This document shows, in pieces, positions 46,887 to 63,758 of a stretch of DNA of 64,000 nt; position 1 is the stretch's first letter; each line of letters starts with the position of its first letter. Under the pieces are notes generated by a model. It was not told the origin of the DNA and made no database searches. It worked only from the letters and a program-made list of their open reading frames with translations. Position numbers and translations under genes: made by a program. The stretch spans positions 29,451 to 93,450 of the forward strand of contig JAKURL010000006.1 in assembly GCA_022449345.1 (NCBI GenBank), given 5' to 3'. This DNA comes from Candidatus Thalassarchaeum sp. (GTDB taxonomy: Archaea > Thermoplasmatota > Poseidoniia > Poseidoniales > Thalassarchaeaceae).

Positions 46887-49800
46887 ATGATGCCCCCGTC
46901 AAAGAACGCCCGAAACCAAACCAAAGGGGGTCGAATTGCGATTTTCTTGGTATTGTTGATGCTAAGTTCACCGATGTTATCGCTGGTTCCATCCACCTCA
47001 GCATCGCATATTACACAATATGCAGTCCAAAGAGATCCTGCATTCATTACCATAGGTGATATTGACTGCGATAACGACAATGATATCGTTTCAGCCAGTT
47101 CCATGGGTCACTTCATCACCGCCCTCTACAACGATGGAATGGGAGGCTTCGGAGATCGGCAGGACGTCTTCATCTCCAACAATGACTCACACCGCGCTGG
47201 ATTCAGGGATACAGCGGATGGAACAAGAGTCTACGTCGCTGACGTCAACGGGGACGACGTCAACGATGTTGTGTATTATCAACAGAATATCCGATTCGTT
47301 GGAGGGCCACACGTTCCAGGCAACCTAACCGTTCTTTGGGGGGACTGTAATGAGAGAATCAACAACTGGAATCCCTCAAATCCAATAACGGTCAACAACC
47401 CATATCTGACCGATATGGATGTTGCAGATATCAATGACGATGGAAATGCTGACATCGTCATGAATGTCATCGATGCGACTGCAACTAACAACTACCTGAT
47501 GATCTTCAAAGGGCCTGATCCCGCACAAATTACCAACCAACAAACCATACCTGTACCATTGACTAACGGACAATACTCCAACGTGATGCTAGGTCATTGG
47601 GGAGAGGATGTACTCGGTGGAGGTATTGGTGGTTCTTTGGGTGATTGCGAAGATCTGGACATTTGGCTACTTCGAACACCTCCTTACAACGTAGGAGTAG
47701 GGTACTCGCGAGGGCACTATGACAACATGACTGTACTCGAATACGATTGTACTCTCGGAACATATCCAAATCCACTAGATGCAACAGCCAACGGTGTCCA
47801 CAATTTCAAACTGGATGCAGAGCACAACTACCCTCTATATGGAATCGATATTTCTGACACTAACGATGATGGAGAGATTGACCTAATCGCGGCTGTTGAT
47901 GGAATTACTGGAAATATATCCTATGCAACCCGATCTGGTTCTTCATGGAACACTCAGAATTATGTGATGCTGGGTGATTACCTTGGTGCATCAATAACAA
48001 TCGCCGACGTTAACCGAGATGGGAATATGGACTTCTTCGTTCCAACTGAAGTTACCCTAACTCGTCTGCAAGATTCAACCTCTCAGAACCAAACCTACCT
48101 ACTTGTCGATAACCTAAGAGAGATCAATACTGTCGAAATCATACTTTCTAATCCGACCGGTACCGGGTATCTTTCCTCACTATCCTTCGATGTGGGTCGC
48201 CGTCCAACAATGGCTGTTCCAGGTCAACTGGCTGGCGGAGATAACAGCGCTTACGAAATTGCCATAGGTCAGCGAGACCGATCTTACAGATTCGCAAATA
48301 GCGCTATGTGGCTAGATACTCAAGGATGGGCGGGAGCAGGAGATTTCCTTTCCGTTCTTAGTCTCGATAACGAGGATGTGGGGATTACCGAGGTTACAAT
48401 TGCACCCGCAGCATATGACCCAGCGACTGGAGCTGCTAGAATTGGTGAGGGTACCAGATTCGTCAATTTGACAGTAAAGAACACTGGTCTAAACCCAATT
48501 TCTGGTTCAATTGATGTCGACCTAGAGGTTAAGGAAGTAATTGATGGAATTGACACCCTAGTATATTCCAATGACTTCGAAGGCAACATCGACAATACCA
48601 ATTGTCTTGCTTGCACAATCCAATTGAAGTCCTACACAGGTGAGTACGGGGACGGCGCATCATCTTGGCACGAGGAATGGAATGCATCTACCGATTCTAA
48701 CGGTTCTGCGACCGATGATTGGTACGAGGCTGACACCAACCCAACAACCTACATGTGGGCTGGAATGGACCACAATGGTGAGGATAACCAGTCGGGTTAT
48801 TACAACAATATGGATGAAGCATTCATCATCGAGAATGTCGATTTGACTGGCTCTGATGCTGCATATCTCGATTTGGATCTATTTTGCAGCACTGCTTTCT
48901 TTGAGTTGTATCTCGCTGAGCAATACGCAGTTGTTGAGCGATGGTTGTATGAGGACTCTTGTAGTATCGAGGTTTGGAGTGATGGAAATGGTTGGGAACA
49001 AGTGTTCTTTACCGGAGGTTGGGATAATGAGAGATTCTTCCGACTTTATACCTTAGGTTATGATCCTGAATACAATACTTACAATGGAAACTTCAACCAA
49101 AACACCGTCTTCCCTTGGGTAAGTTTTTCTGGTGATGATGCGATTGATCTAACTCGCTATGCGGGTGAAGTTATCGATATCCGCTTCCGTTTCCGCAGTG
49201 GATTGATGGGAAGTGTTGGACCTGACGGTTCATCTCAGGAAACCGAGCTTGATGGATTTGCGTTCGACAATATTTCGATTCGCAAAACCGACGTTCAGTT
49301 CGGAACCGAGGAAGTTGTTAGCCAGACCCTTACTTTCTCCGATTTTGCCGCTGGTGCAACTGAGGAAGTGTCGCTAACCGCCGACTTCATAGACAACCGT
49401 ACCTACTACATCAAGACGTCTCTAACCAATCCAACCGGATTTGACAATGCAGACGCAACAAATGACGAAGTAAAATTCCAAATTACTGTCAAAAATCTCT
49501 TCGACCCTGGTGTTGCAGAGGAACCTTGGATTAGTCTTGAGAACGGCTTGAGATATGCATCGGGTGACAGAGATATAGAAATCAAAGTTCAGAATTTTGG
49601 AAACACGGTAACTGATTTCCAATTGGAAACGGTAGTCAAGAATGCTCAACCCGACCTAATTGCTATCGAGGATTTCTCTGGATTAGAACCTATTTGGGAA
49701 GACGATGGAAATGAAAATGGTAGCCGCCTAGATGACACTAATGGCGACCACCCAATGCTCCCACAGAGTAGAGGTGTGTTCAACTCCTTTGCATATTGGT

Positions 49801-52800
49801 TGGGAGATCCAGATACCGGATATGGTGATAATTGGGATGAAACACTAACTTTGGATCCATTCCCAGTCGCATCTGGTGGAACCGATTTCACCTACCTCTC
49901 TTTCGATTACTTCGCAGAGGGAGATTTCCTTTCGGATAGCGATGGTAACATCCTAGCAATTCGTGATGCTGCAGGCCTAGAAATTGAGTGGTCAAAGGGA
50001 GGGGAGATATTCCGTGGAACTGTTTGGGGAAGCTGGACAGATCTAAACGAAAACGGAATTAGACCATTCGACGCCTGTGAGGATTTCGATAACAATGGTC
50101 GGTATGATGAGGTCGAATACATGGGAGACCACTCCGATCGCTACGAGTCTGTAGTTTGGTTTGATTCTGAGAGTTTGGTTAAGTCAGTCATCATTGACAT
50201 GACCCACATCACTCTGCTCAACCAAACATCCAATGACACCTTCGATTGGAGGACTGAGTGCACCGATCTTTCAGGTTCTGAGGTAACTTTGACCTGGAGA
50301 TTCCAATCGAACGATGACGGGGTTAACGGTAATGCGGGTCTTGCTGGAATGGGTGTAGACAATATCCGCATCGACGAGTTCACTTTCGAAAATGATGGAA
50401 AGTACATCAACGATGTAACTGGACTTGATGCATCCGAACGCCAGGAGTTAATGGTGGCGACGCATGATTTCCAATCGGGAATTTACCGAATCGATGCCAC
50501 CACGCTATTCAACAACACGATTGAAGGTACATCTTGGTTCAACCAAACTGAGATTACTACTGCAAATAATCACACTCAGATTATCTTCAGTATCGCAAGC
50601 GCGGACATCACATTGATGCAACCTAACGTACTCGATTGTGTATCCGATATCACCTACAAGTGTGTATATACATTTGACTCGGTATCTCAGCATTCATTCT
50701 CCGTACCTCTGCTAAACGGTGTAATCGCCGGAGAGTACGAGGTTTCGATGAAGATTGTAGATATGACGACCGGTCAAACTGTCTATGAACAACCCGCGGA
50801 TAATGGGCCGTTTGACTTAGATCCACACGCCCGTGACTTTGCTAACTGGACCGCTCCATACAACGGCTGGTACGATGGACATGAGTACAATATTAGCTTC
50901 TATGCAATCTTGACCGAGGATGGCGAACCATCCGGTAACGACCGATTCTTCGAGATTGAATTCTTCGACACTGTAGATGTCGTGATTCTATCAAACCCAA
51001 CCGACCAGAATCGCTTGCAGAGAGTAAAGCAGGACCTTGAAGAGATGGGAATGATCTACACTCAATTATTGGTCGATGACTGGGAGCGTTATGCAACAGA
51101 GAATTGGATGGCACATTACGAGAAGATTCTACTCCCATGGCAAACTGATTACAACGTAGAATACGGAGAATACTACGAAACTCTCGCAGCTACTCGAGAA
51201 TCTGATGGCCTTTCGGTCACCGAAGTCCTAGAGGCCTACATGGTCAATGGTGGAACAGTGCAGATCCACCTAGGTCCATATCGCAACGATTACCAGCCAA
51301 ACAGACTACCTTTCGGAATGGATATCGCTATGCGGAATCAATGGAATAACACTGTCACAAACGATGACCTCGTTGTTGTTGATGCATATCATCCATTGCT
51401 TGAGAACGTTGACACAGCAGCATTCGCAGGTGTGCACGGTGGTTCATACGTCGCCCTAGCGGGACTTGACACAGCACAGGTTCAATTTGACCAAATCCCA
51501 CAGGTTTGTGGTGGTCGAATTAGTGACCCAACGGGAACATTCCACACCCTGATGCGCAGTGAGTCATTCGATTCTCAGTCATTGCTTTCGATTTGTAACC
51601 GAGGTGCTGGTGGAATGATTGTCTCGACCTTAGACGTCGAGAATCCAAGCTTCTCTCAACCATTCGGTGGCACATCGATGCCACTTCTATCCAACATGCT
51701 GGGATACCAAGTTTCTCCATATCCAGCAAACTTTGGCATCGCCGGTGATGGCTTTGACTTGACAGTTAATGGCGAGGCACCTTCGATTGACACAGTAACA
51801 GGTGCCTACGCAACCATGTACATCAAGTCAAACTCAGAACTCGACTTCTCCTTCTTGACCTCAGATACATCGCTTGCTGATAGCATCATAGCCGATTGGA
51901 CGCTACAATCGACCGACATGAACGAATCAGTTACAGGATGGGAAGGCGAGATTATCGATTATGGTGAGATTAGCCACATTCGTCAGGATAGCCCGAGCAT
52001 CCCAACTCTTGGAAACTTCTGCGTTGGGGATACAAGTTCCTCGACTGGATGTCGAATAGGTGCAGAGTGGCTTCTAACTCTGTATCTACATGATGAGGAC
52101 GGACACACACGGATCACCTACATCCATCTAGTAAGCTATTTTACATTGGCAGACGAGTTTAGACCGACTGCAGATCTGCAGTTGGTTGAAGATACAGTCA
52201 CTGACGATTACGTTACTCTAGAGGGAAGCAAGACGGTCGGTGGTGTCGACTGGCCGATATATCGTGTACGATTGACGGACAGCGGTGACATCAGTTTGTC
52301 CTTTGATTCCTCGGCCAGTTCTGATGCAGACGCTCCAGAGGGAGAGAGAGGAATTGAGATGTTTGAATATCGTGTATTCTTCGATTACCCAGTAGATTCT
52401 TCCAACCCAACTCTAGAGGGGCACACCTACCAAGTTCCAAACGCGGCTGGTGGAGACTTGTGGAATTACGTATTCCGAAACATGACCAGTGATGGAACAC
52501 TCGAGAATCAGATTAGGCTGGAACTCATTGTCTACGACAGAGCCGGAAAACAATCAGAGAAGGCTAGAATTTACTTCATCGTAGTCGGTGAGGACTTTGG
52601 AGACGACCCACCAGACGTAGAGATAACCTCACCTCGTTCCACAGATTCACAGAGTCAGGATTTGGTAACCATAAATGGAGTAGTTAACTCAGGTGCTGAG
52701 AATGGTGTGGAGATTGAGGTTGCTTTGGATGTCGAAGTGTTAGATTGGACACCATCACCAAAGGCTACCCAGAAGGCACTTGGTAATTACAACTCAACCG

Positions 52801-53294
52801 GCCCAGCCCCACTCGGTGATGGGGATTCATTCACTTTGACCTTGAACATTGCAAATCTTTACTCAGAAACTACTGGAGTTCAAGTCACAGTTTACTGGAG
52901 AGTGGTTGAAGGTGACGGAAGCCGATACACATTGGATAACCAGTTCACAATCGACTTACTTCCTCGACCAAGCGATCCATGTGCACTGAACCCTTCAGCT
53001 GAGGGTTGTGAGTCGGATAGCGGAAATACGCAGTTGATCATGATCGCTGCTATCGGAGTTATCTTGATTCTAGCAATAGTTGGAGTTACCTTAGTTGTAG
53101 TCCGATCAAAGGGTAAGTCAGACGACACAGATGATACAGTACAACAGTTCGGTGGTGTTGAACAGATGGACCCGGTCGAAGCCTACGTCCAACAGATGGT
53201 TGGTCAAGGTTATGACGAGGCTACTGCGAGGGAATATGCCGAGCAGTATTACGCAGCATATTACGCTCAGCAAGACGAAGGTGGCGGCAGTTGA
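46887..53294 (+). CDS. Giant (2135 aa) cell-surface protein with N-terminal FG-GAP/beta-propeller repeats, two jelly-roll (MAM/lectin-like) domains, a C-terminal TM anchor and a Tyr/Gln-rich cytoplasmic tail.
   Basis: Signal peptide. Repeated DxDxDGxxD FG-GAP-like units (DIDCDNDNDIV, ADVNGDDVNDVV, ADINDDGNADIV, ADVNRDGNMDFF). FRFRSG...DNISI and TWRFQSNDDG...DNIRI beta-sandwich signatures. TM helix IMIAAIGVILILAIVGVTLVVV. Tail YAEQYYAAYYAQQ. Confidence 0.7.
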   Translation: MMPPSKNARNQTKGGRIAIFLVLLMLSSPMLSLVPSTSASHITQYAVQRDPAFITIGDIDCDNDNDIVSASSMGHFITALYNDGMGGFGDRQDVFISNNDSHRAGFRDTADGTRVYVADVNGDDVNDVVYYQQNIRFVGGPHVPGNLTVLWGDCNERINNWNPSNPITVNNPYLTDMDVADINDDGNADIVMNVIDATATNNYLMIFKGPDPAQITNQQTIPVPLTNGQYSNVMLGHWGEDVLGGGIGGSLGDCEDLDIWLLRTPPYNVGVGYSRGHYDNMTVLEYDCTLGTYPNPLDATANGVHNFKLDAEHNYPLYGIDISDTNDDGEIDLIAAVDGITGNISYATRSGSSWNTQNYVMLGDYLGASITIADVNRDGNMDFFVPTEVTLTRLQDSTSQNQTYLLVDNLREINTVEIILSNPTGTGYLSSLSFDVGRRPTMAVPGQLAGGDNSAYEIAIGQRDRSYRFANSAMWLDTQGWAGAGDFLSVLSLDNEDVGITEVTIAPAAYDPATGAARIGEGTRFVNLTVKNTGLNPISGSIDVDLEVKEVIDGIDTLVYSNDFEGNIDNTNCLACTIQLKSYTGEYGDGASSWHEEWNASTDSNGSATDDWYEADTNPTTYMWAGMDHNGEDNQSGYYNNMDEAFIIENVDLTGSDAAYLDLDLFCSTAFFELYLAEQYAVVERWLYEDSCSIEVWSDGNGWEQVFFTGGWDNERFFRLYTLGYDPEYNTYNGNFNQNTVFPWVSFSGDDAIDLTRYAGEVIDIRFRFRSGLMGSVGPDGSSQETELDGFAFDNISIRKTDVQFGTEEVVSQTLTFSDFAAGATEEVSLTADFIDNRTYYIKTSLTNPTGFDNADATNDEVKFQITVKNLFDPGVAEEPWISLENGLRYASGDRDIEIKVQNFGNTVTDFQLETVVKNAQPDLIAIEDFSGLEPIWEDDGNENGSRLDDTNGDHPMLPQSRGVFNSFAYWLGDPDTGYGDNWDETLTLDPFPVASGGTDFTYLSFDYFAEGDFLSDSDGNILAIRDAAGLEIEWSKGGEIFRGTVWGSWTDLNENGIRPFDACEDFDNNGRYDEVEYMGDHSDRYESVVWFDSESLVKSVIIDMTHITLLNQTSNDTFDWRTECTDLSGSEVTLTWRFQSNDDGVNGNAGLAGMGVDNIRIDEFTFENDGKYINDVTGLDASERQELMVATHDFQSGIYRIDATTLFNNTIEGTSWFNQTEITTANNHTQIIFSIASADITLMQPNVLDCVSDITYKCVYTFDSVSQHSFSVPLLNGVIAGEYEVSMKIVDMTTGQTVYEQPADNGPFDLDPHARDFANWTAPYNGWYDGHEYNISFYAILTEDGEPSGNDRFFEIEFFDTVDVVILSNPTDQNRLQRVKQDLEEMGMIYTQLLVDDWERYATENWMAHYEKILLPWQTDYNVEYGEYYETLAATRESDGLSVTEVLEAYMVNGGTVQIHLGPYRNDYQPNRLPFGMDIAMRNQWNNTVTNDDLVVVDAYHPLLENVDTAAFAGVHGGSYVALAGLDTAQVQFDQIPQVCGGRISDPTGTFHTLMRSESFDSQSLLSICNRGAGGMIVSTLDVENPSFSQPFGGTSMPLLSNMLGYQVSPYPANFGIAGDGFDLTVNGEAPSIDTVTGAYATMYIKSNSELDFSFLTSDTSLADSIIADWTLQSTDMNESVTGWEGEIIDYGEISHIRQDSPSIPTLGNFCVGDTSSSTGCRIGAEWLLTLYLHDEDGHTRITYIHLVSYFTLADEFRPTADLQLVEDTVTDDYVTLEGSKTVGGVDWPIYRVRLTDSGDISLSFDSSASSDADAPEGERGIEMFEYRVFFDYPVDSSNPTLEGHTYQVPNAAGGDLWNYVFRNMTSDGTLENQIRLELIVYDRAGKQSEKARIYFIVVGEDFGDDPPDVEITSPRSTDSQSQDLVTINGVVNSGAENGVEIEVALDVEVLDWTPSPKATQKALGNYNSTGPAPLGDGDSFTLTLNIANLYSETTGVQVTVYWRVVEGDGSRYTLDNQFTIDLLPRPSDPCALNPSAEGCESDSGNTQLIMIAAIGVILILAIVGVTLVVVRSKGKSDDTDDTVQQFGGVEQMDPVEAYVQQMVGQGYDEATAREYAEQYYAAYYAQQDEGGGS

Positions 53295-54638: not shown

Positions 54639-55667
54639 TCAATCCTCAGATTCTTCTTTCTCGCCCCACCAGTTCTCTGACTTAGAGAAGTCAGGAATAA
54701 TGGGCTTCCATTTTTGCCCGAGCACTTCTTCTGCTTCTACAATCCTATCATGCCTGTCTCTGAAGGCTTCTGTGCGTTTACCAATCGTATGATTGTAGAG
54801 TTTACTCTCTCGAATGTCCGATGGTACGCAGACCTTTCCTGAAGTACTCTCGACATCGATTGCCCGTTCTAGGTCAAGTGCGTGTCGATTCAGGGATTGT
54901 AGTAAACCAGCACCTACTCGACTTACCCCCATGAATAATCCTAGAATAATCAAGAAAACCAAGATGAATCCGAATTGAGTTCCACCCAGCAATTGCATCG
55001 CTACGGTTCCGATTAGGAAAACTATTGGTGCTACAAAAGTGAATAGGAAGAATGTCTCAGAAAGCGGTTTACGTCCTTTCATCCGACCAATTATTTCCCA
55101 ACGAGGATCCTTGGGATTCTGTGGCCTGAAAACCTCTTCTTTTTCCATTTTTGCCGCCTTGTCAACCATCTGCCTAACCCGATCCATATTCGCAAGTTGC
55201 CTTCTGTCGGGTTTTTCCATCTCGGGGTCGAACATTACTTCCAATAGTTCACTCGCCTCAGCGTACATGCCTAGACGGACCAGAATGGCAATTTGTTCAA
55301 TTAATGGTGTTACATCTGTAGGGTTGACCGCCCTCATTTGCTGCCACCATTCGAGGGCTTCTTCTAGCATACCGAGATGGTCCACGAGGAGGATTCCTCC
55401 CAGTGCCCAAGATTCTGTGTCATCCGGTTCTAGTCTGACGACACTCTGTAGTGCAGCGTAAGCACTTGCTGCTTGGGCGAGAGTGGGCATATCCTGAACG
55501 CCTCTTCGAGCTACTGGCAGAACCATCCTAGCGGTCATTTTCCAAGCCGCCGCATGGTTAGGCTCCATTCGGGTAATTTGGCGGCACAAATTGAGGGCTT
55601 CTTCCCTCTCCCCTGCCTCTTCATGCTCTAGAACTTCATCCCAGAGCATAGCCGCCTTGCTCGCCAT
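54639..55667 (-). CDS. TPR-repeat membrane protein (cytoplasmic TPR region plus two TM helices).
   Basis: Helical TPR-like N-terminal half, and hydrophobic segments FFLFTFVAPIVFLIGTVAMQLL and FGFILVFLIILGLFMGV. Confidence 0.45.
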   Translation of the reverse strand: MASKAAMLWDEVLEHEEAGEREEALNLCRQITRMEPNHAAAWKMTARMVLPVARRGVQDMPTLAQAASAYAALQSVVRLEPDDTESWALGGILLVDHLGMLEEALEWWQQMRAVNPTDVTPLIEQIAILVRLGMYAEASELLEVMFDPEMEKPDRRQLANMDRVRQMVDKAAKMEKEEVFRPQNPKDPRWEIIGRMKGRKPLSETFFLFTFVAPIVFLIGTVAMQLLGGTQFGFILVFLIILGLFMGVSRVGAGLLQSLNRHALDLERAIDVESTSGKVCVPSDIRESKLYNHTIGKRTEAFRDRHDRIVEAEEVLGQKWKPIIPDFSKSENWWGEKEESED

Positions 55668-55714: not shown

Positions 55715-56620
55715 TCAGCGCCTTCCACTACCTCTTCCGGGTCGGTTACTTCTCGGACCGCCACGCCCAGTGCCTCTGAATCCAGATCTGTGTGGTCGGC
55801 TGGCACTTCCTGGTGCCCGACCTCGTCCTCGTTCAGAACGACCAACTTGTGATCTAGAATTTCGACCCCCGAATCCACTTTTAGTTCTGGACTTAGCATC
55901 AGAACTAGGCTTGTCGGCTTTACACTTGTTACACTTGTCGCGGAAGGCGAAATTCGAATTTTTACACTTGGGGCAGTTCCAGTCTCCCGGTTTCTTCCCC
56001 CCGCCGTCTCTTCCATCTGAGCGGCGTTCATTTCGCCGTCCGCCTCCTCGACTGCCTTGCGGTCGGTCGGTTTCGCATCGATGGCATTTTTTACGGAACG
56101 CGAAGTTTGAATTTTTGCACTTGGGGCAGTCCCAGTCTCCAGCCTTCTGCCCAGTATTGCCTCTCCCATTTGAATTTCTTTCGTTTCTTCCTCCACCGCC
56201 CCGGGGCCGGTCGGCTTCACAGCGATTGCACTTATTGCGGAAGGCAAAATTGGAATTTTTGCACTTAGGGCAAGTCCAATCCTCGCCTTTATTCCCATCT
56301 TGTCTTCCACGTCGATCATTACGCCGGTCATCTCTGGGTGAGCGTCTTTCTCTATCCCTTCCTCTACCTTGGTTTTTCCATCGCTCTCTGGGGGCGATTT
56401 CAACCGGTGAACCTATTGCATTCGAGGATTCTATTTCCTCAGGGATTGGATGGATGTGAATCAGGGCTCGATCTACTGCGCCAATTACAGAATTCACCTT
56501 GCCGATTGGCTTTCCACCGATTATTCGTAAAGTAGCCCCAAGCCTTGGCGCACGCCCCTCAAAGGCAACTAGGAGTCCACCTTCATGCGACTCCCTCTCG
56601 ACTGTCCCTGAGAAGCTCAT
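55715..56620 (-). CDS. Gar1-like beta-barrel protein carrying three RanBP2-type zinc fingers and RGG/RG-rich linkers and tail.
   Basis: The N-terminal approximately 80 aa (GTVERESHEGGLLVAF...IGKVNSVIGAVDRALIHIHP...IGSPVEI) resemble archaeal Gar1. Three repeats of DW[TDN]CPKCKNSNFAFR[NKD]KC[NH][RK]C fit the RanBP2 ZnF consensus exactly. Low-complexity RGG segments lie between and after them. The start was set at Met17, just after the upstream gene's stop. Confidence 0.6.
   Translation of the reverse strand: MSFSGTVERESHEGGLLVAFEGRAPRLGATLRIIGGKPIGKVNSVIGAVDRALIHIHPIPEEIESSNAIGSPVEIAPRERWKNQGRGRDRERRSPRDDRRNDRRGRQDGNKGEDWTCPKCKNSNFAFRNKCNRCEADRPRGGGGRNERNSNGRGNTGQKAGDWDCPKCKNSNFAFRKKCHRCETDRPQGSRGGGRRNERRSDGRDGGGKKPGDWNCPKCKNSNFAFRDKCNKCKADKPSSDAKSRTKSGFGGRNSRSQVGRSERGRGRAPGSASRPHRSGFRGTGRGGPRSNRPGRGSGRR
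55922..56278 (-). repeat. Three tandem coding repeats (about 150-nt period), each encoding one RanBP2-type zinc finger plus an RGG linker.
   Basis: Fingers at 56219..56278, 56075..56134 and 55922..55981. The repeats create long spurious ORFs in the other frames. Confidence 0.7.
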
Positions 56621-56624
56621 AGAA

Positions 56625-58622
56625 TCAGCCGCGTCGGCCCGAGTATATGAGTGCCGCAGATGCTGCAAGAATCAGTCCAGTCAATCCCATTGAGGGTAGG
56701 ATTGACGAGTTATCACTAGGTGGTTGAGGCTCAGGTTCAGGCTCAACAAATAGGTGAGAGTTGTCTACACTGCGCTGTTGACTTACACAGAGTTCCGACT
56801 CATCGCAACCTCGAACTTCAACAATGTGAGATCCTTCTGCCCAGACTGAGAAATCGATTGGTGGTGTAGACCACATATTACCGGAGACTGTAATGCTACC
56901 AACCGACGAACCGTCTATCATTAGGCTGAAACTAACCGCTTCGCCATCGGGGTCGGAGAATTGTCCGCTCATCGACCATGTATCTCCATCCCATCCTTCT
57001 GAGTTAACGGTCATTATCGGCGCACTGCTAGCCTTTTGGATTCCTAAATCGTAGGTTGTTTGCAAAGTGTAAACTCCGTCTCCGGTAATTCTAACCGCAA
57101 CGTAAGCAGGACCAGGAACAACACCTAATGCCGCAACATCTTGAGTTATTTCGGAGTCTTGAAGCGTGTATGAGCCAGAGTATGTTCCCGCATTGCCGAA
57201 GGTTGAGGTAAATCCTATTTCTACGGATAATTCTGGCCAGCCAGCGGTTGGAGAGATTGTAATTGGATGAGGGTCTAATAAATCGGTCGAAGTTGTTGAA
57301 ATTTGGAATGGCACACCAATATTCCAAGTTCTATTACCCGACGATTGACCAGCACTGTCAATAGCCTCACAGGTGACTTCTCCTGCTTGACCCCTTGGAA
57401 CATCCATTGATAGTTCTCGTTCTGAATATGCGATGACTAATCCAGCGTCACCTCGACAATTGACATCAAGACTCGAGACTCCCGCCTCGTCGACAAACCA
57501 ATTTTGGATATCATTCCAGTTTGCAATTATCTGTGAGCCTCCGCTCGCGCGAGGAAACCATGCACCATCAGCAGGGGCGTTTTCAGTCCATACTGGTGGC
57601 TCATCTACAGGAATTGGAGCAGTGGTAAAGTCGGCGAACAAATCTTCACCGATCGGCCATTGAGGCATGTCTGGATAGAAGGAGTAAGTCAGGCTACCAT
57701 CTTCATTCTCAATGATTTCGTAAGTGCTAGAACCGTCTCCAACGCAACTACCTCGTAGTGGGGCAACACCAGCAAAATCACCCATATCCGCCTGCACATC
57801 TCGTCCCTCACATTCTTCCCACATATCTAGACGCAATCCCTCGGTAATCGGGAATATTATGTGGTACTCAGCACCACTCATGTTAGAGGCGTTGTAGGTG
57901 AAGGTGAACTCGCTAGGATCATTGATGTTTGAGATTGTCAAGGTCGCATTAAGCCAGAGTATCAACCGACACTCATCTTGTCCACTTGAGGCATCAACTT
58001 CTGTATCACAATCTCGTTCATTGTTAGGGTATACTGGTACCTCGTAGCAATCGCTGCTACTACCAATACCTGAACACTCTCTGGATTGTGAATGTCGAGG
58101 TGGCACTAGATTCCATTCTTCGACTAGAACTTCATCCTCAGTCCAAGTGATATTCTTCCAATCTGTCCCCTCTCCACCTCTGTGAGGACTACCATCGCGC
58201 ATCCCCATTCTTGTCAGAGTATATTGTACGCACTCGGAAGCGATGGCTCTGACTCCTTCTCTCTCGTCGGTGGAAATCCATTCATCATCACCGCTGGGGT
58301 AAACCGCTGCGATGTATTCATCTAGGCTATGTCTGACATCATCCGCAAGGGTTTCATTGACCCATGCTACCGCTTGTACTTCGGCTGAAGCCCAATCATT
58401 CGCAACATGAATATTGAATATCGCTCGGGTATATTCGAACATATCTTCAAATGTTATCGTGCTACATTGTTCCTCCAGAGTAGGACCATCTGGGCCAAGC
58501 TGTTCTCGTCGCTCCTGAGATTCATCTAGACCACCTTCGTGACTACTAATTGGCATCCAAGAAATCATCATTGCAAACATAGTCATCAGCACAGCGATTC
58601 GTAGTGCGCCTTCCCGACTCAT
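56625..58622 (-). CDS. Secreted/surface protein with an N-terminal signal peptide and a C-terminal TM anchor (hypothetical).
   Basis: MSREGALRIAVLMTMFAMMISW signal/anchor. C-terminal LTGLILAASAALIYSGRRG. Cys-rich extracellular region. Confidence 0.45.
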   Translation of the reverse strand: MSREGALRIAVLMTMFAMMISWMPISSHEGGLDESQERREQLGPDGPTLEEQCSTITFEDMFEYTRAIFNIHVANDWASAEVQAVAWVNETLADDVRHSLDEYIAAVYPSGDDEWISTDEREGVRAIASECVQYTLTRMGMRDGSPHRGGEGTDWKNITWTEDEVLVEEWNLVPPRHSQSRECSGIGSSSDCYEVPVYPNNERDCDTEVDASSGQDECRLILWLNATLTISNINDPSEFTFTYNASNMSGAEYHIIFPITEGLRLDMWEECEGRDVQADMGDFAGVAPLRGSCVGDGSSTYEIIENEDGSLTYSFYPDMPQWPIGEDLFADFTTAPIPVDEPPVWTENAPADGAWFPRASGGSQIIANWNDIQNWFVDEAGVSSLDVNCRGDAGLVIAYSERELSMDVPRGQAGEVTCEAIDSAGQSSGNRTWNIGVPFQISTTSTDLLDPHPITISPTAGWPELSVEIGFTSTFGNAGTYSGSYTLQDSEITQDVAALGVVPGPAYVAVRITGDGVYTLQTTYDLGIQKASSAPIMTVNSEGWDGDTWSMSGQFSDPDGEAVSFSLMIDGSSVGSITVSGNMWSTPPIDFSVWAEGSHIVEVRGCDESELCVSQQRSVDNSHLFVEPEPEPQPPSDNSSILPSMGLTGLILAASAALIYSGRRG

Positions 58623-62464: not shown

Positions 62465-63475
62465 TTAGGCTTCATATGCTTCCACCATTCGGCGAATAGC
62501 ACTAGAGACCTCTTCTTTCCCTTCAAGTAAATCGCCTAGGGCCATAATGAATGGAACATCGATTTCCAACCTACTGGCTCGGTTGAGGAACATTCTGGTA
62601 GCCCTAACACCCTCAGCCACCATGTGCATCTCTGAAAGTGCTTGTTCGAGGGATTTTCCAGAGCCAAGCTTCTCCCCTAGAGTTCGGTTTCTCGAGCGTG
62701 GGCTGGTTGCTGTAACATATAGGTCACCAATACCAGCAGGTCCGAAAGCAGTGCCGGCGTTTGCGCCCATTGCATCTAGCAGAACGAGTCCTTCAGAGAA
62801 TCCTGCTAGAACCAAAGCCGCCTTGAGATTGTCACCACCGATTCCATCTCTCAAACCATCGACTAGACCACAAGCAAGGGCTACTGTATTCTTGTAAGCC
62901 CCCCATAATTCTGCACCTTCAACGTCGTTGGTTGCAGTTAGTACCAAAGTTTCCGTCGAGAGTCGCTCTGCGATTCTATCTGCTACCGATCGGTCATGGC
63001 AGGCAACCAGAGCTGTTGTCATAACACCTCGAGCGACTTCGGGAGCGATTGTTGGTCCGGTCAATACCACAACAGGATTTGCCTTTCCATTAGCAGATAG
63101 TCTAGACTCAATCTCTTGAGAAATCATTCCAGATTCACTCTCAGCGGTCGGAGCCAATCCTTTGGCTAAGTCGATTAGAACATGTGAAGGGCGAAGAAGC
63201 GGAATTAGGTCATTCACGACAGATAGAATAACGCTGCTTGGAAGTGCTAGGACAAGAATCTCACAGGTATCGGTCAGGTCAGATAATTCCATTGTAGAAT
63301 CAAGATTAGGAATCTCGTGTTCTGGAAGGTACTTTTCATTGATATTCGTAGTCATCAAAGACTCGTATACTTCTGATTCGATTGTCCAACCCATGACGTT
63401 GTGGCCGTCTTCACACCAGATCTTTGCAAGGGCAGTACCCCAGTTGCCAAGGCCAAGAATACCTATGCGAGCCAT
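62465..63475 (-). CDS. gpsA: NAD(P)H-dependent glycerol-3-phosphate dehydrogenase.
   Basis: MARIGILGLGNWGTALA Rossmann N-terminus and a GpsA-like C-terminus. The longer ORF (to 63739) would run through tRNA-Leu, so the start was set at the Met at 63475. Confidence 0.85.
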   Translation of the reverse strand: MARIGILGLGNWGTALAKIWCEDGHNVMGWTIESEVYESLMTTNINEKYLPEHEIPNLDSTMELSDLTDTCEILVLALPSSVILSVVNDLIPLLRPSHVLIDLAKGLAPTAESESGMISQEIESRLSANGKANPVVVLTGPTIAPEVARGVMTTALVACHDRSVADRIAERLSTETLVLTATNDVEGAELWGAYKNTVALACGLVDGLRDGIGGDNLKAALVLAGFSEGLVLLDAMGANAGTAFGPAGIGDLYVTATSPRSRNRTLGEKLGSGKSLEQALSEMHMVAEGVRATRMFLNRASRLEIDVPFIMALGDLLEGKEEVSSAIRRMVEAYEA

Positions 63476-63579
63476 GTGCACCCCAGAATCACTTCGCCTA
63501 ATGCACCCGTTATGACCCCTTTGGGGCGAGAACTGACTACCGTTGGATTCTTGATGTCGAGTTTGCGGCCGAGGGTTAA

Positions 63580-63664
63580 GCAGGGGTTCCCGAGCGGTCA
63601 AAGGGGCTGGGTTTAGGTCCCAGTGCGTAGTGCTTCGCAGGTTCAAATCCTGTCCCCTGCACCA
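63580..63664 (+). tRNA. tRNA-Leu (anticodon TAG), type II with a long variable arm and encoded CCA.
   Basis: Acceptor GCAGGGG/CCCCUGC. Anticodon stem CUGGG/CCCAG with loop UUUAGGU. T-arm GCAGG-UUCAAAU-CCUGU. 3' end ACCA. Confidence 0.8.
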
Positions 63665-63758
63665 CTTTTTCATAACACAGAAGCCATAATGCAAGGTGCC
63701 CCTACCGATAGCCGTGGAAGACACGATATCGGGATTCAAATTTGAGTCCCGTCATAAA

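What the first reader, a model, noticed from the sequence alone, without database searches (positions are those of the whole stretch)
55715..56620. Archaeal Gar1-like domain fused to three eukaryote-type RanBP2 zinc fingers and RGG repeats
**What the sequence shows.** The N-terminal approximately 80 aa align by eye with the archaeal H/ACA RNP protein Gar1, over the beta-barrel core (recalled Pyrococcus Gar1: LGKVLHYAKQGFLIV...FVGIVKDVFGPVKMPYVAIKP...VGEVLYV).

Downstream come three near-identical modules: DWTCPKCKNSNFAFRNKCNRC, DWDCPKCKNSNFAFRKKCHRC and DWNCPKCKNSNFAFRDKCNKC. Each satisfies the RanBP2-type zinc-finger consensus W-x-C-x2-C-x3-N-x6-C-x2-C exactly. Each also carries the NFAxR and CN[RQ]C residues of the ssRNA-binding subclass seen in ZRANB2 and in FUS/EWS/TAF15.

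The fingers are separated by RGGGGRNERNSNGRGN-type linkers. They are followed by an RG/RGG-rich tail of about 55 aa.

**Why it matters.** Eukaryotic Gar1 is flanked by glycine-arginine-rich (GAR) domains. Archaeal Gar1 is normally a bare barrel of about 75-100 aa. RanBP2 zinc fingers are essentially a eukaryotic invention.

The flanking genes are unambiguously archaeal, so this is a FET/ZRANB2-like RNA-binding layout grafted onto an H/ACA RNP subunit in an archaeon. It could be a lateral acquisition or convergent evolution. Either is of evolutionary and functional interest for RNA targeting or modification.
Basis: partly seen in the sequence, partly recalled or inferred. Interest (0 to 1): 0.85.

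Follow-up and report, generated by a model that had tools for sequence, protein, structure and literature searches.

The report
Archaeal Gar1 carrying RNA-type zinc fingers
A marine archaeon's version of Gar1, a small subunit of the RNA-guided pseudouridine-making complex, carries three eukaryote-style RNA-binding zinc fingers and an arginine/glycine-rich disordered tail; this layout turns out to be shared by the whole Marine Group II order, whereas reviews say archaeal Gar1 lacks such extensions.

Summary
On the minus strand, 55715-56620 encodes a 301-aa protein.

- **Gar1 barrel (aa 1-80).** The curated Gar1 HMMs are not reached (Pfam 11.6 bits, cut-off 29.3). A family profile and an AlphaFold model (pLDDT 90.5) both point to Gar1: hhalign gives 99.2 % against canonical archaeal Gar1, and the top 18 PDB fold matches are all Gar1 or Naf1.
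- **Three zinc fingers.** They score 91 bits against Pfam's RanBP2-type zinc finger model (cut-off 27). The closest solved structure is the FUS finger bound to UGGUG. The ZRANB2 residues that contact GGU are nearly invariant across 172 family fingers.
- **Linkers and tail.** They are 47 % Arg+Gly and predicted disordered.

It is not contamination, a chimera or a repeat artefact. The finger modules are only 69-72 % identical in DNA, with many synonymous differences. GC3 matches the neighbouring genes. Relatives were found in 215 species-representative genomes; all but two of the 80 loci retrieved are labelled archaeal, mostly Poseidoniales, and the two bacterial-labelled contigs show the same archaeal synteny. 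Gene order is conserved. Finger number varies from 0 to 5 by clade.

Most likely this is the order's Gar1 subunit with an added single-stranded-RNA-binding arm, analogous to the GAR domains of eukaryotic Gar1. Binding to Cbf5, binding to RNA, and the absence of a second Gar1 are untested. I found no description of it in the literature. I rate it a new variant of a known kind, of moderately high interest.

The parts
55715..56620 (-). Complete coding sequence of the Gar1-zinc-finger protein (301 aa plus the stop codon at 55715-55717)
   Evidence: ORF list and translation. The ATG start is supported by homologues that begin MSFSG. A 93 % identical protein, P0001, is in public data.
56381..56620 (-). 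Gar1-type beta-barrel domain, aa 1-80
   Evidence: AF2 pLDDT 90.5 with six strands. In Foldseek against the PDB, the top 18 hits are all Gar1 or Naf1; the best is P. furiosus Gar1 2ey4_D (E 4e-4, TM 0.75/0.82, rmsd 2.4 A). The profile search of the PDB puts Gar1 2hvy_B first at E 7.5e-4. hhalign against canonical Gar1 gives 99.2 %. Pfam Gar1 scores only 11.6-15.3 bits against a cut-off of 29.3.
56288..56380 (-). Arg/Asp/Gly-rich disordered linker, aa 81-111
   Evidence: pLDDT below 50 over aa 81-111. Mean identity to 22 homologues is 0.25, against 0.63 for the barrel.
56201..56287 (-). RanBP2-type zinc finger 1, aa 112-140 (GEDWTCPKCKNSNFAFRNKCNRCEADRPR)
   Evidence: Coordinates; Pfam PF00641. 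The best PDB sequence match is the FUS finger 6g99_B at E 1.4e-6. pLDDT is 82-90. The Asp, Asn, Phe, Arg and Asn that correspond to ZRANB2 D68, N76, W79, R82 and N86 are all present.
56144..56200 (-). Gly/Arg/Asn-rich linker, aa 141-159 (GGGGRNERNSNGRGNTGQK)
   Evidence: pLDDT below 50 over aa 142-159. Mean identity to homologues is 0.27.
56057..56143 (-). RanBP2-type zinc finger 2, aa 160-188 (AGDWDCPKCKNSNFAFRKKCHRCETDRPQ)
   Evidence: His replaces the Asn that corresponds to ZRANB2 N86.
55991..56056 (-). Gly/Arg-rich linker, aa 189-210
   Evidence: pLDDT below 50 over aa 190-209.
55904..55990 (-). RanBP2-type zinc finger 3, aa 211-239 (PGDWNCPKCKNSNFAFRDKCNKCKADKPS)
55718..55903 (-). Arg/Gly/Ser-rich disordered C-terminal tail, aa 240-301
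   Evidence: In aa 238-301, 16 Arg, 15 Gly and 12 Ser out of 64 residues. pLDDT below 50 over aa 241-301. The last ~36 aa are conserved within the MGIIb subclade.
56625..58622 (-). Context only: conserved upstream neighbour. A 665-aa protein with a signal-peptide-like N-terminus and a C-terminal hydrophobic anchor. Its stop codon lies 4 nt before the gar1 ATG.
   Evidence: No Pfam hit. A homologue lies directly upstream in 77 of 80 related loci and in L081-L086.
54639..55667 (-). Context only: conserved downstream neighbour. A 342-aa protein with TPR repeats and hydrophobic segments.
   Evidence: Pfam TPR_14 and TPR_19. A homologue lies downstream in 63 of 80 loci; most of the others end at a contig edge.

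Best explanation
This gene encodes the Gar1 subunit of the box H/ACA pseudouridylation RNP in a Marine Group II archaeon (order Poseidoniales, family Thalassarchaeaceae). Its normally short basic C-terminus has been expanded into a beads-on-a-string RNA-binding arm.

**Proposed mechanism.** The N-terminal barrel would dock on the catalytic domain of Cbf5. There it would hold the root of the thumb loop, controlling substrate placement and product release, as canonical archaeal Gar1 does. The three RanBP2-type fingers would each grip a short single-stranded G-rich triplet (GGU/GGN-like), by stacking the conserved Phe between two guanines and reading the bases with the conserved Asp, Asn, Arg and Asn. 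The Arg/Gly-rich disordered linkers and tail would add non-specific RNA affinity. The result would be a Gar1 that touches RNA itself. It could help capture, hold or hand over rRNA or other substrates, or concentrate the RNP on nascent RNA. That is the role proposed for the GAR/RGG domains of eukaryotic Gar1.

**Shown here:** fold and family of each module, conservation of the RNA-contact residues, disorder of the linkers, purifying selection on each finger, order-wide vertical inheritance, and a variable finger number.

**Inferred:** Cbf5 binding, RNA binding and its GGU-type specificity, and that this is the only Gar1 of these genomes.
For: **Gar1 identity.**
- The profile of 16 N-domains searched against the PDB puts P. 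furiosus Gar1 in the top four places (E 7.5e-4), with yeast Gar1 also listed.
- 13 of 16 members give Pfam Gar1 as their best hit.
- The AF2 model (pLDDT 90.5) superposes on Gar1 in Cbf5-Nop10-Gar1 crystals (TM 0.75/0.82, rmsd 2.2-2.4 A), followed by human, yeast and insect Gar1 and by Naf1.
- An unbiased HMM search of 1.84 billion representatives returns 131 proteins. The 109 with E <= 1e-10 belong to the family, as do most of the weaker hits. Among the weakest, six of the seven short proteins I scanned against Pfam gave Gar1 as their only hit (four above the cut-off), including Methanothermus fervidus Gar1.
- hhalign of the family against canonical Gar1 gives 99.2 %, E 1e-19, over 80 columns.
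- JGI's pipeline names several members 'rRNA processing protein Gar1'.

**Fingers.**
- Pfam scores 91 bits with three matched stretches.
- The closest PDB sequences are FUS ZnF (E 1.4e-6), ZNF265/ZRANB2, RBM5, TAF15 and RBM10, ahead of the Ran- and ubiquitin-binding fingers.
- The full-length model matches FUS-ZnF:UGGUG and the Nup153/Nup358 fingers.
- Over 172 distinct family fingers, the ZRANB2 contact positions are kept: D68 in 171/172, N76 in 166, an aromatic at W79 in 172, Arg or Lys at R82 in 172, and N86 in 165. The contacts are taken from PMC11789483.

**Disorder.** pLDDT is below 50 in aa 81-111, 142-159, 190-209 and 241-301. The extension is 47 % Arg+Gly.

**Selection.** The fingers and the barrel are 0.59-0.63 identical across 22 homologues, against 0.25-0.27 for the linkers. 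Paralogous fingers differ at 8-12 synonymous codons out of 29.

**Native, old gene.** Relatives occur in 215 species-representative genomes; the retrieved loci cover both Poseidoniales families. The up665-gar1-TPR-AhcY-giant protein-aconitase synteny is conserved. GC3 is 0.43 against 0.39-0.46 for the neighbours.

**Role of Gar1 and GAR domains.** From PMC8096250, PMC4551948 and PMC7991803.
Against: - The N-domain does not reach the curated Gar1 thresholds: Pfam 11.6-15.3 bits against 29.3, NCBIfam 15.5 against 107. It is therefore a divergent Gar1.
- No H/ACA partner gene (cbf5, nop10, l7ae) and no H/ACA RNA lies in the window or next to the gene in any related locus.
- I could not examine whole Poseidoniales genomes, so a second, canonical Gar1 is not excluded.
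- Two clades have no fingers at all, so the fingers are not indispensable.
- ZRANB2 R81, which contacts G1, is Phe here. FUS and EWS have Trp at that position, but specificity may differ.
- The conserved operon-like position behind a secreted or anchored protein gives no support for an RNA-modification role.
Confidence: 0.62

Rival explanations
1. It is a lineage-specific RNA-binding protein that merely reuses a Gar1-like barrel: a paralogue or a divergent offshoot. It would work outside the H/ACA RNP, for example as an RNA chaperone or a ribosome-biogenesis or mRNA-binding factor. The true Gar1 would be a separate small protein elsewhere in the genome.
For: The barrel scores below every curated Gar1 cut-off. 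There is no genomic link to cbf5, nop10 or l7ae. NCBI annotates members only as 'zinc finger protein' or 'hypothetical protein'. Naf1 shows that the Gar1 fold can serve other roles.
Against: In 1.84 billion representatives, the checked relatives outside the family were Gar1 proteins. The alignment with Gar1 is full-length, at 99.2 %. The archaeal Gar1 structures, not Naf1, are the best structural matches. There is no second Gar1-like ORF in the 64-kb window. The search with the canonical-Gar1 profile returned no hit labelled Poseidoniales, but that search is word-limited and so weak evidence.
Confidence: 0.22
2. The barrel is Gar1, but the fingers are protein-binding modules, as in the Nup153/RanBP2 (Ran-GDP) or NZF/TAB2/TRABID (ubiquitin) classes. 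They would recruit a small GTPase or a ubiquitin-like protein (SAMP) rather than RNA.
For: The RanBP2 fold is shared by the protein-binding classes, and the model superposes well on the Nup153/Nup358 fingers (rmsd 0.5-2.8 A).
Against: Sequence ranking puts the RNA binders first: FUS at 1.4e-6 against Nup153 at 3e-3 or worse and TAB2/TRABID at 0.03-0.7. The ZRANB2 RNA-contact set (Asp, Asn, aromatic, Arg/Lys, Asn) is nearly invariant. The fingers sit in Arg/Gly-rich linkers typical of RNA binders. From my own knowledge, the NZF ubiquitin-binding signature T-F...Φ is absent (not formally scored).
Confidence: 0.08
3. The feature is an artefact: eukaryotic contamination, a chimeric contig, or a mis-assembled repeat that inflates the number of fingers.
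For: Several public MAGs do have gaps or frameshifts inside this repeat region (L017, L041, L025). The closest relative, P0001, has a differently arranged linker.
Against: The finger modules are only 69-72 % identical in DNA and TRF finds no tandem repeat. The same architecture occurs in well over 100 independent assemblies, with conserved archaeal neighbours on both sides. GC3 equals that of the flanks. One ORF runs continuously from the barrel to the tail.
Confidence: 0.02

Closest known systems
Canonical archaeal Gar1 (e.g. Pyrococcus furiosus PF1791 in PDB 2HVY/2EY4; Methanothermus fervidus WP_013413548.1)
   Same: Same six-stranded barrel over about 78 residues (TM 0.75/0.82). Shared core residues: G15, L17, P25, L27, G40, V42, V45 and G47 of the family are identical in P. 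furiosus Gar1. The barrel is followed by a basic C-terminus.
   Different: Canonical proteins in the search were 76-128 aa with at most a short Lys/Arg tail. This one is 301 aa, with three zinc fingers and about 160 aa of Arg/Gly-rich disorder. Identity is only about 21-22 %, below the curated HMM cut-offs.
Eukaryotic Gar1/GAR1 with N- and C-terminal GAR (RGG) domains
   Same: A Gar1 core plus Arg/Gly-rich disordered extension(s) thought to add accessory RNA binding (PMC8096250). Some family members carry true RGG arrays (L062 has 36 RGG).
   Different: The extension is C-terminal only. It is interrupted by zinc fingers, which no described eukaryotic Gar1 has to my knowledge. The window copy has only 3 RGG and no di- or tri-RGG box. 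The extension most likely arose independently. Arginine methylation is unknown.
ssRNA-binding RanBP2-type zinc fingers of ZRANB2 and the FET proteins (FUS, EWS, TAF15), and of RBM5/RBM10
   Same: Same consensus, and the same RNA-contact residues. The sequence similarity to the FUS finger is the strongest of any solved structure (45 % identity in the structural alignment). As in FUS, the fingers are flanked by RGG/RG-rich disorder, and the array is tandem as in ZRANB2.
   Different: No RRM, SYGQ-rich or SR domain. The position of ZRANB2 R81 is Phe. A second family class has Cx4C in the second knuckle (45 of 172 fingers). The host is an archaeon and the fusion partner is Gar1.
Naf1 (eukaryotic H/ACA assembly factor with a Gar1-like domain)
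   Same: Same barrel fold (2v3m and 2eqn hits).
   Different: Naf1 ranks below all the Gar1 structures. Naf1 is eukaryote-specific and has no RanBP2 fingers.

Membership tests
Gar1 (H/ACA RNP subunit; Pfam PF04410 Gar1/Naf1) | Score above the curated family HMM threshold | tested here: not met
   Pfam scores 11.6 bits for the full protein and 15.3 for the domain alone, against a cut-off of 29.3. The best family member reaches E 2.7e-4. NCBIfam NF009632 scores 15.5 bits against 107.
Gar1 (H/ACA RNP subunit; Pfam PF04410 Gar1/Naf1) | Homology to bona fide Gar1 detectable at profile level, with reciprocal retrieval | tested here: met
   hhalign gives 99.2 %, E 1.1e-19, over 80 columns. The profile search of the PDB puts P. 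furiosus Gar1 in the top four. In the search of 1.84e9 representatives, six of the seven short tail hits that I scanned gave Pfam Gar1 as their only hit, four of them above the cut-off; one is annotated M. fervidus Gar1.
Gar1 (H/ACA RNP subunit; Pfam PF04410 Gar1/Naf1) | Six-stranded Gar1-type beta-barrel fold | tested here: met
   AF2 pLDDT 90.5. In Foldseek the top 18 hits are Gar1 or Naf1, with rmsd 2.2-2.4 A to 2hvy_B and 2ey4.
Gar1 (H/ACA RNP subunit; Pfam PF04410 Gar1/Naf1) | Binds the Cbf5 catalytic domain and thumb loop within a Cbf5-Nop10-L7Ae-guide RNA particle | not testable with these tools
   No multimer prediction was available, and no Poseidoniales Cbf5 sequence was in hand. No partner gene lies in the window or the flanks.
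Gar1 (H/ACA RNP subunit; Pfam PF04410 Gar1/Naf1) | Is the (single) Gar1 orthologue of its genome | tested here: inconclusive
   There is no second Gar1-like ORF in the 64-kb window. The family is present in 215 species-representative genomes with fixed synteny. Whole genomes could not be scanned, and the canonical-Gar1 search was word-limited.
RanBP2-type zinc finger (Pfam PF00641) | W-x-C-x2-4-C-x3-N-x6-C-x2-C consensus and the Pfam threshold | tested here: met
   There are three exact matches. Pfam scores 91.1 bits against 27. D, W and the four Cys are invariant in all three fingers across 23 aligned homologues; the consensus Asn is invariant or nearly so.
RanBP2-type zinc finger (Pfam PF00641) | Two-beta-hairpin zinc-ribbon fold | tested here: met
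   The finger segments have pLDDT 82-92 with paired short strands. They superpose on the FUS, Nup153 and Nup358 fingers with target TM 0.66-0.82. Zinc binding itself is not testable.
ssRNA-binding subclass of RanBP2 fingers (ZRANB2 / FET / RBM5-10) | Aromatic stacking residue (ZRANB2 W79) plus base-reading Asp68, Asn76, Arg82 and Asn86 | tested here: met
   Window fingers: Asp, Asn, Phe and Arg are present in all three. The Asn86 equivalent is Asn, His, Asn. Family-wide values are 171/172, 166/172, 172/172, 172/172 (Arg or Lys) and 165/172. The contact list comes from PMC11789483. The Arg81 equivalent is Phe, where FUS has Trp.
ssRNA-binding subclass of RanBP2 fingers (ZRANB2 / FET / RBM5-10) | Demonstrated binding to GGU/GGN single-stranded RNA | not testable with these tools
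   This needs RBNS, SELEX or EMSA with recombinant protein.
FET family (FUS/EWS/TAF15) | SYGQ-rich low-complexity domain plus an RRM plus a single finger between RGG boxes | tested here: not met
   Pfam detects no RRM or other FET domain. Only the finger-in-RGG layout is shared, so it resembles FET locally but is not a member.
GAR / RGG-box domain | Clustered RGG repeats (di- or tri-RGG with spacers of 0-4 residues; this definition is recalled from the RGG-motif literature) | tested here: not met
   The window copy has 3 isolated RGG and 10 RG, and no di- or tri-RGG or tri-RG. Across the family, 15 of 179 proteins have tri-RGG and 116 of 179 have tri-RG.
GAR / RGG-box domain | Arg/Gly-rich, intrinsically disordered region | tested here: met
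   39 Arg and 37 Gly in 161 non-finger residues. pLDDT is below 50 throughout the linkers and tail.

The most novel reading that the evidence does not exclude
The Poseidoniales H/ACA particle may be a hybrid-guided enzyme. Sequence-reading zinc fingers on Gar1 would select or tether G-rich single-stranded RNA alongside the guide RNA, and the multivalent finger/RG arm would drive condensate-like clustering of rRNA-modifying machinery in a cell without a nucleus. A linked reading concerns origins. The FET/ZRANB2-type RNA-binding finger embedded in RG-rich disorder, and a GAR-like extension on Gar1, may have existed in archaea independently of eukaryotes or before them. In that case these 'eukaryote-specific' features would be either archaeal in origin or a striking case of convergence.
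Probability: 0.12. Interest if true: 0.85.

Novelty: new variant of a known kind. Interest (0 to 1): 0.62.

Why it matters
Reviews state that archaeal Gar1 lacks the glycine/arginine-rich regions of eukaryotic Gar1, and treat those regions as eukaryote-specific (PMC7991803, PMC8096250). The role of those regions in H/ACA RNPs is still called elusive.

Here an entire, globally abundant archaeal order carries a Gar1 with an Arg/Gly-rich disordered arm plus 0-5 FET/ZRANB2-type RNA-binding fingers. That gives three things:

1. **A natural series for testing function.** The series runs from no fingers to five, and from RG-poor to 36 RGG. It can be used to ask what an RNA-binding arm on Gar1 does for substrate capture and turnover.
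2. **A large archaeal family of a domain known almost only from eukaryotes.** It is well conserved and bears on the origin of RanBP2-type RNA-binding fingers.
3. **A candidate for multivalent RNA-protein assembly in archaea.**

On the practical side, curated Gar1 models miss the family. NCBI labels members 'zinc finger protein' or 'hypothetical protein', so Gar1 probably looks absent from Marine Group II in HMM-based annotation.

Tried and rejected
**Searches that found nothing**
I also looked for the TruB motif G[TS]LDP and a Nop10-like pattern. Nothing beyond the gene itself turned up. Rfam on the window gave three tRNAs and no H/ACA RNA.
- *Tandem repeats in the gene.* TRF found nothing relevant. 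My first repeat finder failed on the strand syntax.
- *Mobile or viral source of the fingers.* There was no relative in IMG/VR, and no tblastn hit for the three fingers in 50,697 phage records or 72,556 plasmid records.
- *Other RanBP2-finger genes near the locus.* In 928 kb of Poseidoniales loci I found only frame-shifted pieces of the same gene.
- *Literature.* Eight full-text searches combining Gar1, RanBP2, zf-RanBP, archaea, Marine Group II, Poseidoniales and RGG found no description of this architecture.

**Searches that were uninformative**
- *Canonical-Gar1 profile search, meant to reveal a second Gar1 in Poseidoniales.* It returned 97 hits; most of the named ones are Thermococcales and none is labelled Poseidoniales. 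It is limited by the word index and so says little.

**Readings rejected**
- *Contamination, chimera or repeat collapse:* see the rival explanations.
- *FET-family membership:* there is no RRM or low-complexity domain.
- *A functional link to the conserved neighbours* (a secreted ~650-aa protein and a TPR membrane protein): no evidence, left as unexplained.
Full report
**1. What is in the sequence**

The finding's coordinates delimit one ORF on the minus strand. It starts at the ATG at 56620 and stops at 55715-55717, giving 301 aa. A longer TTG-initiated version from 56668 would overlap the upstream gene. The homologues start at MSFSG, or the equivalent MF.G in more distant clades, so the ATG is the real start. 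The upstream gene ends 4 nt before that ATG (TGA-TTCT-ATG, read).

In window coordinates these are 56201-56287, 56057-56143 and 55904-55990.

**2. The zinc fingers**

Pfam Zn_ribbon_RanBP (PF00641) scores 91.1 bits, E 2.4e-26, with three matched stretches, against a cut-off of 27.

One finger searched against all PDB sequences finds these first:
- FUS ZnF (6g99_B, E 1.4e-6)
- ZNF265/ZRANB2
- RBM5
- TAF15
- RBM10

The Ran-binding Nup153 fingers and the ubiquitin-binding TAB2/TRABID fingers rank lower. In the full-length AlphaFold model the three finger segments are confident (pLDDT 82-92). The model also hits FUS-ZnF:UGGUG and the Nup153/Nup358 fingers in Foldseek.

According to PMC11789483, the ZRANB2 finger reads GGU as follows. 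Trp79 stacks between the two guanines. Asp68 and Arg81 contact G1, Arg82 contacts G2, and Asn76 and Asn86 contact U3.

I extracted 172 distinct fingers from the family. At the equivalent positions they show:

| ZRANB2 position | Family fingers |
|---|---|
| Asp68 | Asp in 171 of 172 |
| Asn76 | Asn in 166 |
| Trp79 | Phe in 137, Tyr in 35 |
| Arg82 | Arg in 127, Lys in 45 |
| Asn86 | Asn in 165 |
| Arg81 | Phe most often; FUS has Trp here |

Two spacing classes exist: CxxC…CxxC (127 fingers) and CxxC…Cx4C (45 fingers). In the window copy, finger 2 has His in place of the Asn86 equivalent.

The subclass assignment is therefore supported by sequence. RNA binding itself is inferred.

**3. The N-terminal domain**

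With single sequences the Gar1 call is sub-threshold. Pfam Gar1 gives E 0.25 and 11.6 bits against a cut-off of 29.3. NCBIfam Gar1 gives 15.5 bits against 107. Four independent lines nevertheless converge on Gar1.

- **Profile against the PDB.** A profile of 16 diverse N-domains (alignment A1) finds P. furiosus Gar1 in the first four places (E 7.5e-4). Yeast Gar1 is also listed. Scanned individually, 13 of the 16 members have Pfam Gar1 as their best hit.
- **Structure.** The AlphaFold model of the domain is confident (pLDDT 90.5). Its first 18 Foldseek matches in the PDB are all Gar1 or Naf1. The list is led by Gar1 in the P. furiosus Cbf5-Nop10-Gar1 and H/ACA RNP crystals (TM 0.75/0.82, rmsd 2.2-2.4 Å over 77-78 columns). 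The full-length model reproduces this.
- **Unbiased library search.** An HMM search of 1.84 billion representative proteins returned only 131 hits. The 109 hits with E ≤ 1e-10 belong to the family, as do most of the weaker ones that I inspected. Among the weakest hits I scanned seven short proteins (75-95 aa) against Pfam. Six gave Gar1 as their only hit, four of them above the cut-off, and one is the annotated Gar1 of Methanothermus fervidus.
- **Profile against profile.** Comparison of the family with those canonical proteins plus P. furiosus Gar1 gives 99.2 % probability, E 1e-19, over 80 columns. There is some circularity, because seven of the eight canonical sequences were chosen from the family's own hit list. 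However, they were independently confirmed as Gar1 by Pfam and by annotation.

I conclude that the domain is a divergent member of the Gar1 fold and superfamily. Whether it is the functional Gar1 of the cell is inferred.

**4. Linkers and tail**

In the full-length model, aa 81-111, 142-159, 190-209 and 241-301 have pLDDT below 50. With the fingers masked, the extension (161 aa) contains 39 Arg and 37 Gly. It has only 3 RGG and 10 RG, and no di- or tri-RGG box. So the window copy is RG-rich rather than a classical RGG array.

Other members differ. L062 has 36 RGG. Across the family, 15 of 179 proteins have tri-RGG and 116 of 179 have tri-RG.

Against 22 homologues, the barrel and the fingers are 0.59-0.63 identical to the window protein, while the linkers and tail are 0.25-0.27. 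The composition of the linkers is conserved but their sequence is not.

**5. Not an artefact, not foreign**

- The three finger modules are 69-72 % identical at the DNA level. Each pair differs at 8-12 synonymous codons out of 29, and TRF finds no tandem repeat. They are old duplicates under purifying selection.
- GC3 of the gene (0.43) lies within the range of its neighbours (0.39-0.46). The higher total GC (0.53) reflects Arg and Gly codons.
- A protein search found 427 relatives. The closest is 93 % identical, and all 120 listed hits carry the precomputed PF00641 domain. NCBI labels members as Euryarchaeota, Poseidoniales or Thalassarchaeaceae MAGs. JGI names several 'predicted nucleic-acid-binding Zn-ribbon protein/rRNA processing protein Gar1'.
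- A scan of one genome per GTDB species found the N-domain in 215 genomes. Of the 80 loci retrieved, all but two are labelled archaeal; the informative labels are Poseidoniales and include both Thalassarchaeaceae (MGIIb) and Poseidoniaceae (MGIIa). The window's closest relatives are Thalassarchaeaceae (87-91 % identity in the barrel).
- Gene order is conserved across the order. An ABC transporter is followed by a ~650-aa protein with no Pfam hit, then gar1-ZnF, then a ~340-aa TPR/membrane protein. These are followed by AhcY, a ~2,150-aa FG-GAP protein, a ~210-aa protein and aconitase.
- The upstream neighbour is present in 77 of 80 loci and the downstream one in 63 of 80; most of the rest are cut by contig ends.

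**6. Variation within the family**

In complete ORFs from the species representatives, the finger count is 0 (16 loci), 1 (10), 2 (24), 3 (11) or 4 (4). One protein from the first search has 5.

On a neighbour-joining tree of the barrel, the count is coherent by clade:
- An MGIIa clade has 3-4 fingers.
- Another clade has one finger plus long RGG arrays.
- Two clades have none, but keep a 70-130-aa Arg/Gly/Lys-rich tail.

The tree rests on 78 residues and is only indicative. The simplest reading is an ancestral fusion followed by duplication and loss.

Some MAG copies contain assembly gaps or frameshifts in the repeats (L017, L041, L025), so the counts are lower bounds. A divergent Thalassarchaeaceae clade has one degenerate ribbon that lacks the RNA-contact residues.

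**7. Mechanism proposed**

Established knowledge comes from PMC8096250, PMC4551948 and PMC7991803:
- Gar1 is the only H/ACA protein that does not touch the guide RNA.
- It binds Cbf5 and the root of the thumb loop, and it promotes correct substrate placement and product release.
- Eukaryotic Gar1 additionally has GAR/RGG domains of unclear role that affect RNP dynamics and substrate turnover.
- Archaeal Gar1 is said to lack those domains.

I propose that the Poseidoniales protein is the order's Gar1. Its C-terminal arm would add direct, multivalent binding of single-stranded, G-rich RNA to the particle, through three GGU/GGN-type fingers and RG-rich disorder. This is functionally analogous to the eukaryotic GAR domains, and to the finger-in-RGG arrangement of FUS.

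Canonical archaeal Gar1 proteins already end in a short Lys/Arg tail. The arm therefore looks like an elaboration of that tail.

Confidence in the domain identities is high. Confidence in the functional reading is about 0.6. The reasons for holding back are:
- Cbf5 binding and RNA binding are untested.
- There are no partner genes nearby.
- I could not scan whole genomes for a second Gar1.

**8. Origin of the fingers**

The fingers match the FUS finger more strongly than any other solved structure (45 % identity in the structural alignment). They share the whole RNA-contact signature with the eukaryotic RNA-binding subclass. That argues for common ancestry rather than convergence of the finger itself.

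No relative was found in IMG/VR, in the phage records or in the plasmid records, nor elsewhere in 928 kb of Poseidoniales loci. Whether the domain entered the Poseidoniales ancestor from a eukaryote or is older cannot be decided here.

The pairing of Gar1 with an Arg/Gly-rich region most likely arose independently of eukaryotes. It is C-terminal only, interrupted by fingers, and confined to one order.

**9. Novelty and score**

Eight full-text searches found no description of this architecture. Automated JGI names show that pipelines have seen both domains. NCBI calls the proteins 'zinc finger protein' or 'hypothetical protein'.

It is a new variant of a known kind: a Gar1 with an unprecedented domain architecture, running against review statements about archaeal Gar1. 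It is not a new kind of system. Interest is 0.62. A specialist in H/ACA RNPs or in the evolution of RNA-binding domains would be surprised, and the family offers a natural series for testing what RNA-binding extensions on Gar1 do. The biochemistry, however, is entirely inferred.

Noticed in passing
L017, L041 (N-runs inside the gene) and L025 (frameshift at about 6628): Several public Poseidoniales MAGs break, gap or frameshift inside the finger/linker repeats. Further fingers are then readable in another frame, so finger counts taken from MAGs are lower bounds.
   Followed up: partly
L047 (PBUF01000091.1) and L050 (PARX01000028.1): These contigs are deposited in MAGs labelled Gammaproteobacteria and Rhodobacteraceae. 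They carry the archaeal up665-gar1-TPR synteny, so they are almost certainly mis-binned Poseidoniales contigs.
   Followed up: yes
window 56625-58622 (-), 55715-56620 (-) and 54639-55667 (-): An order-wide, operon-like trio: a ~650-aa signal-peptide/C-terminal-anchor protein with no Pfam hit, then gar1-ZnF only 4 nt downstream, then a TPR membrane protein. It is conserved in 77 of 80 and 63 of 80 loci. No functional link to RNA modification is apparent.
   Followed up: partly
proteins P0195, P0205, P0211 (Thalassarchaeaceae): A divergent subclade has a single degenerate ribbon, TWVCxxCRxxNSxTxKCxxCG. It has x5 spacing and no aromatic or Arg at the RNA-contact positions, and Pfam zf-RanBP scores only 20 bits. 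The finger may have changed or lost its function.
   Followed up: partly
window 62465-63739 (-) and 63580-63664 (+): The mechanical ORF for the glycerol-3-phosphate dehydrogenase is over-extended at its 5' end. A tRNA-Leu(tag) on the opposite strand lies within it, and the Pfam domains start only at aa 87-92.
   Followed up: partly
protein P0001 compared with window 55991-56200: The closest relative (93 % identical, 298 aa) has the first linker sequence (RGGGGRNERNSNG.G.TGQKAGDW) repeated in place of the window's second linker. This suggests recombination or concerted evolution among the repeats, or assembly variation.
   Followed up: no
window 55718-55830 (aa ~265-301): The last ~36 residues (RGRxPGSxSRPRRSGFRGxxRGxPRxNRPGRGSGRR) are well conserved within the MGIIb subclade although predicted disordered. 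They may form a short linear motif.
   Followed up: no
window 46887-53294 (+): A 2,135-aa protein with faint FG-GAP matches and a C-terminal transmembrane anchor. It is conserved in the same position across MGIIa and MGIIb (2,149-2,228 aa in L081-L086).
   Followed up: no
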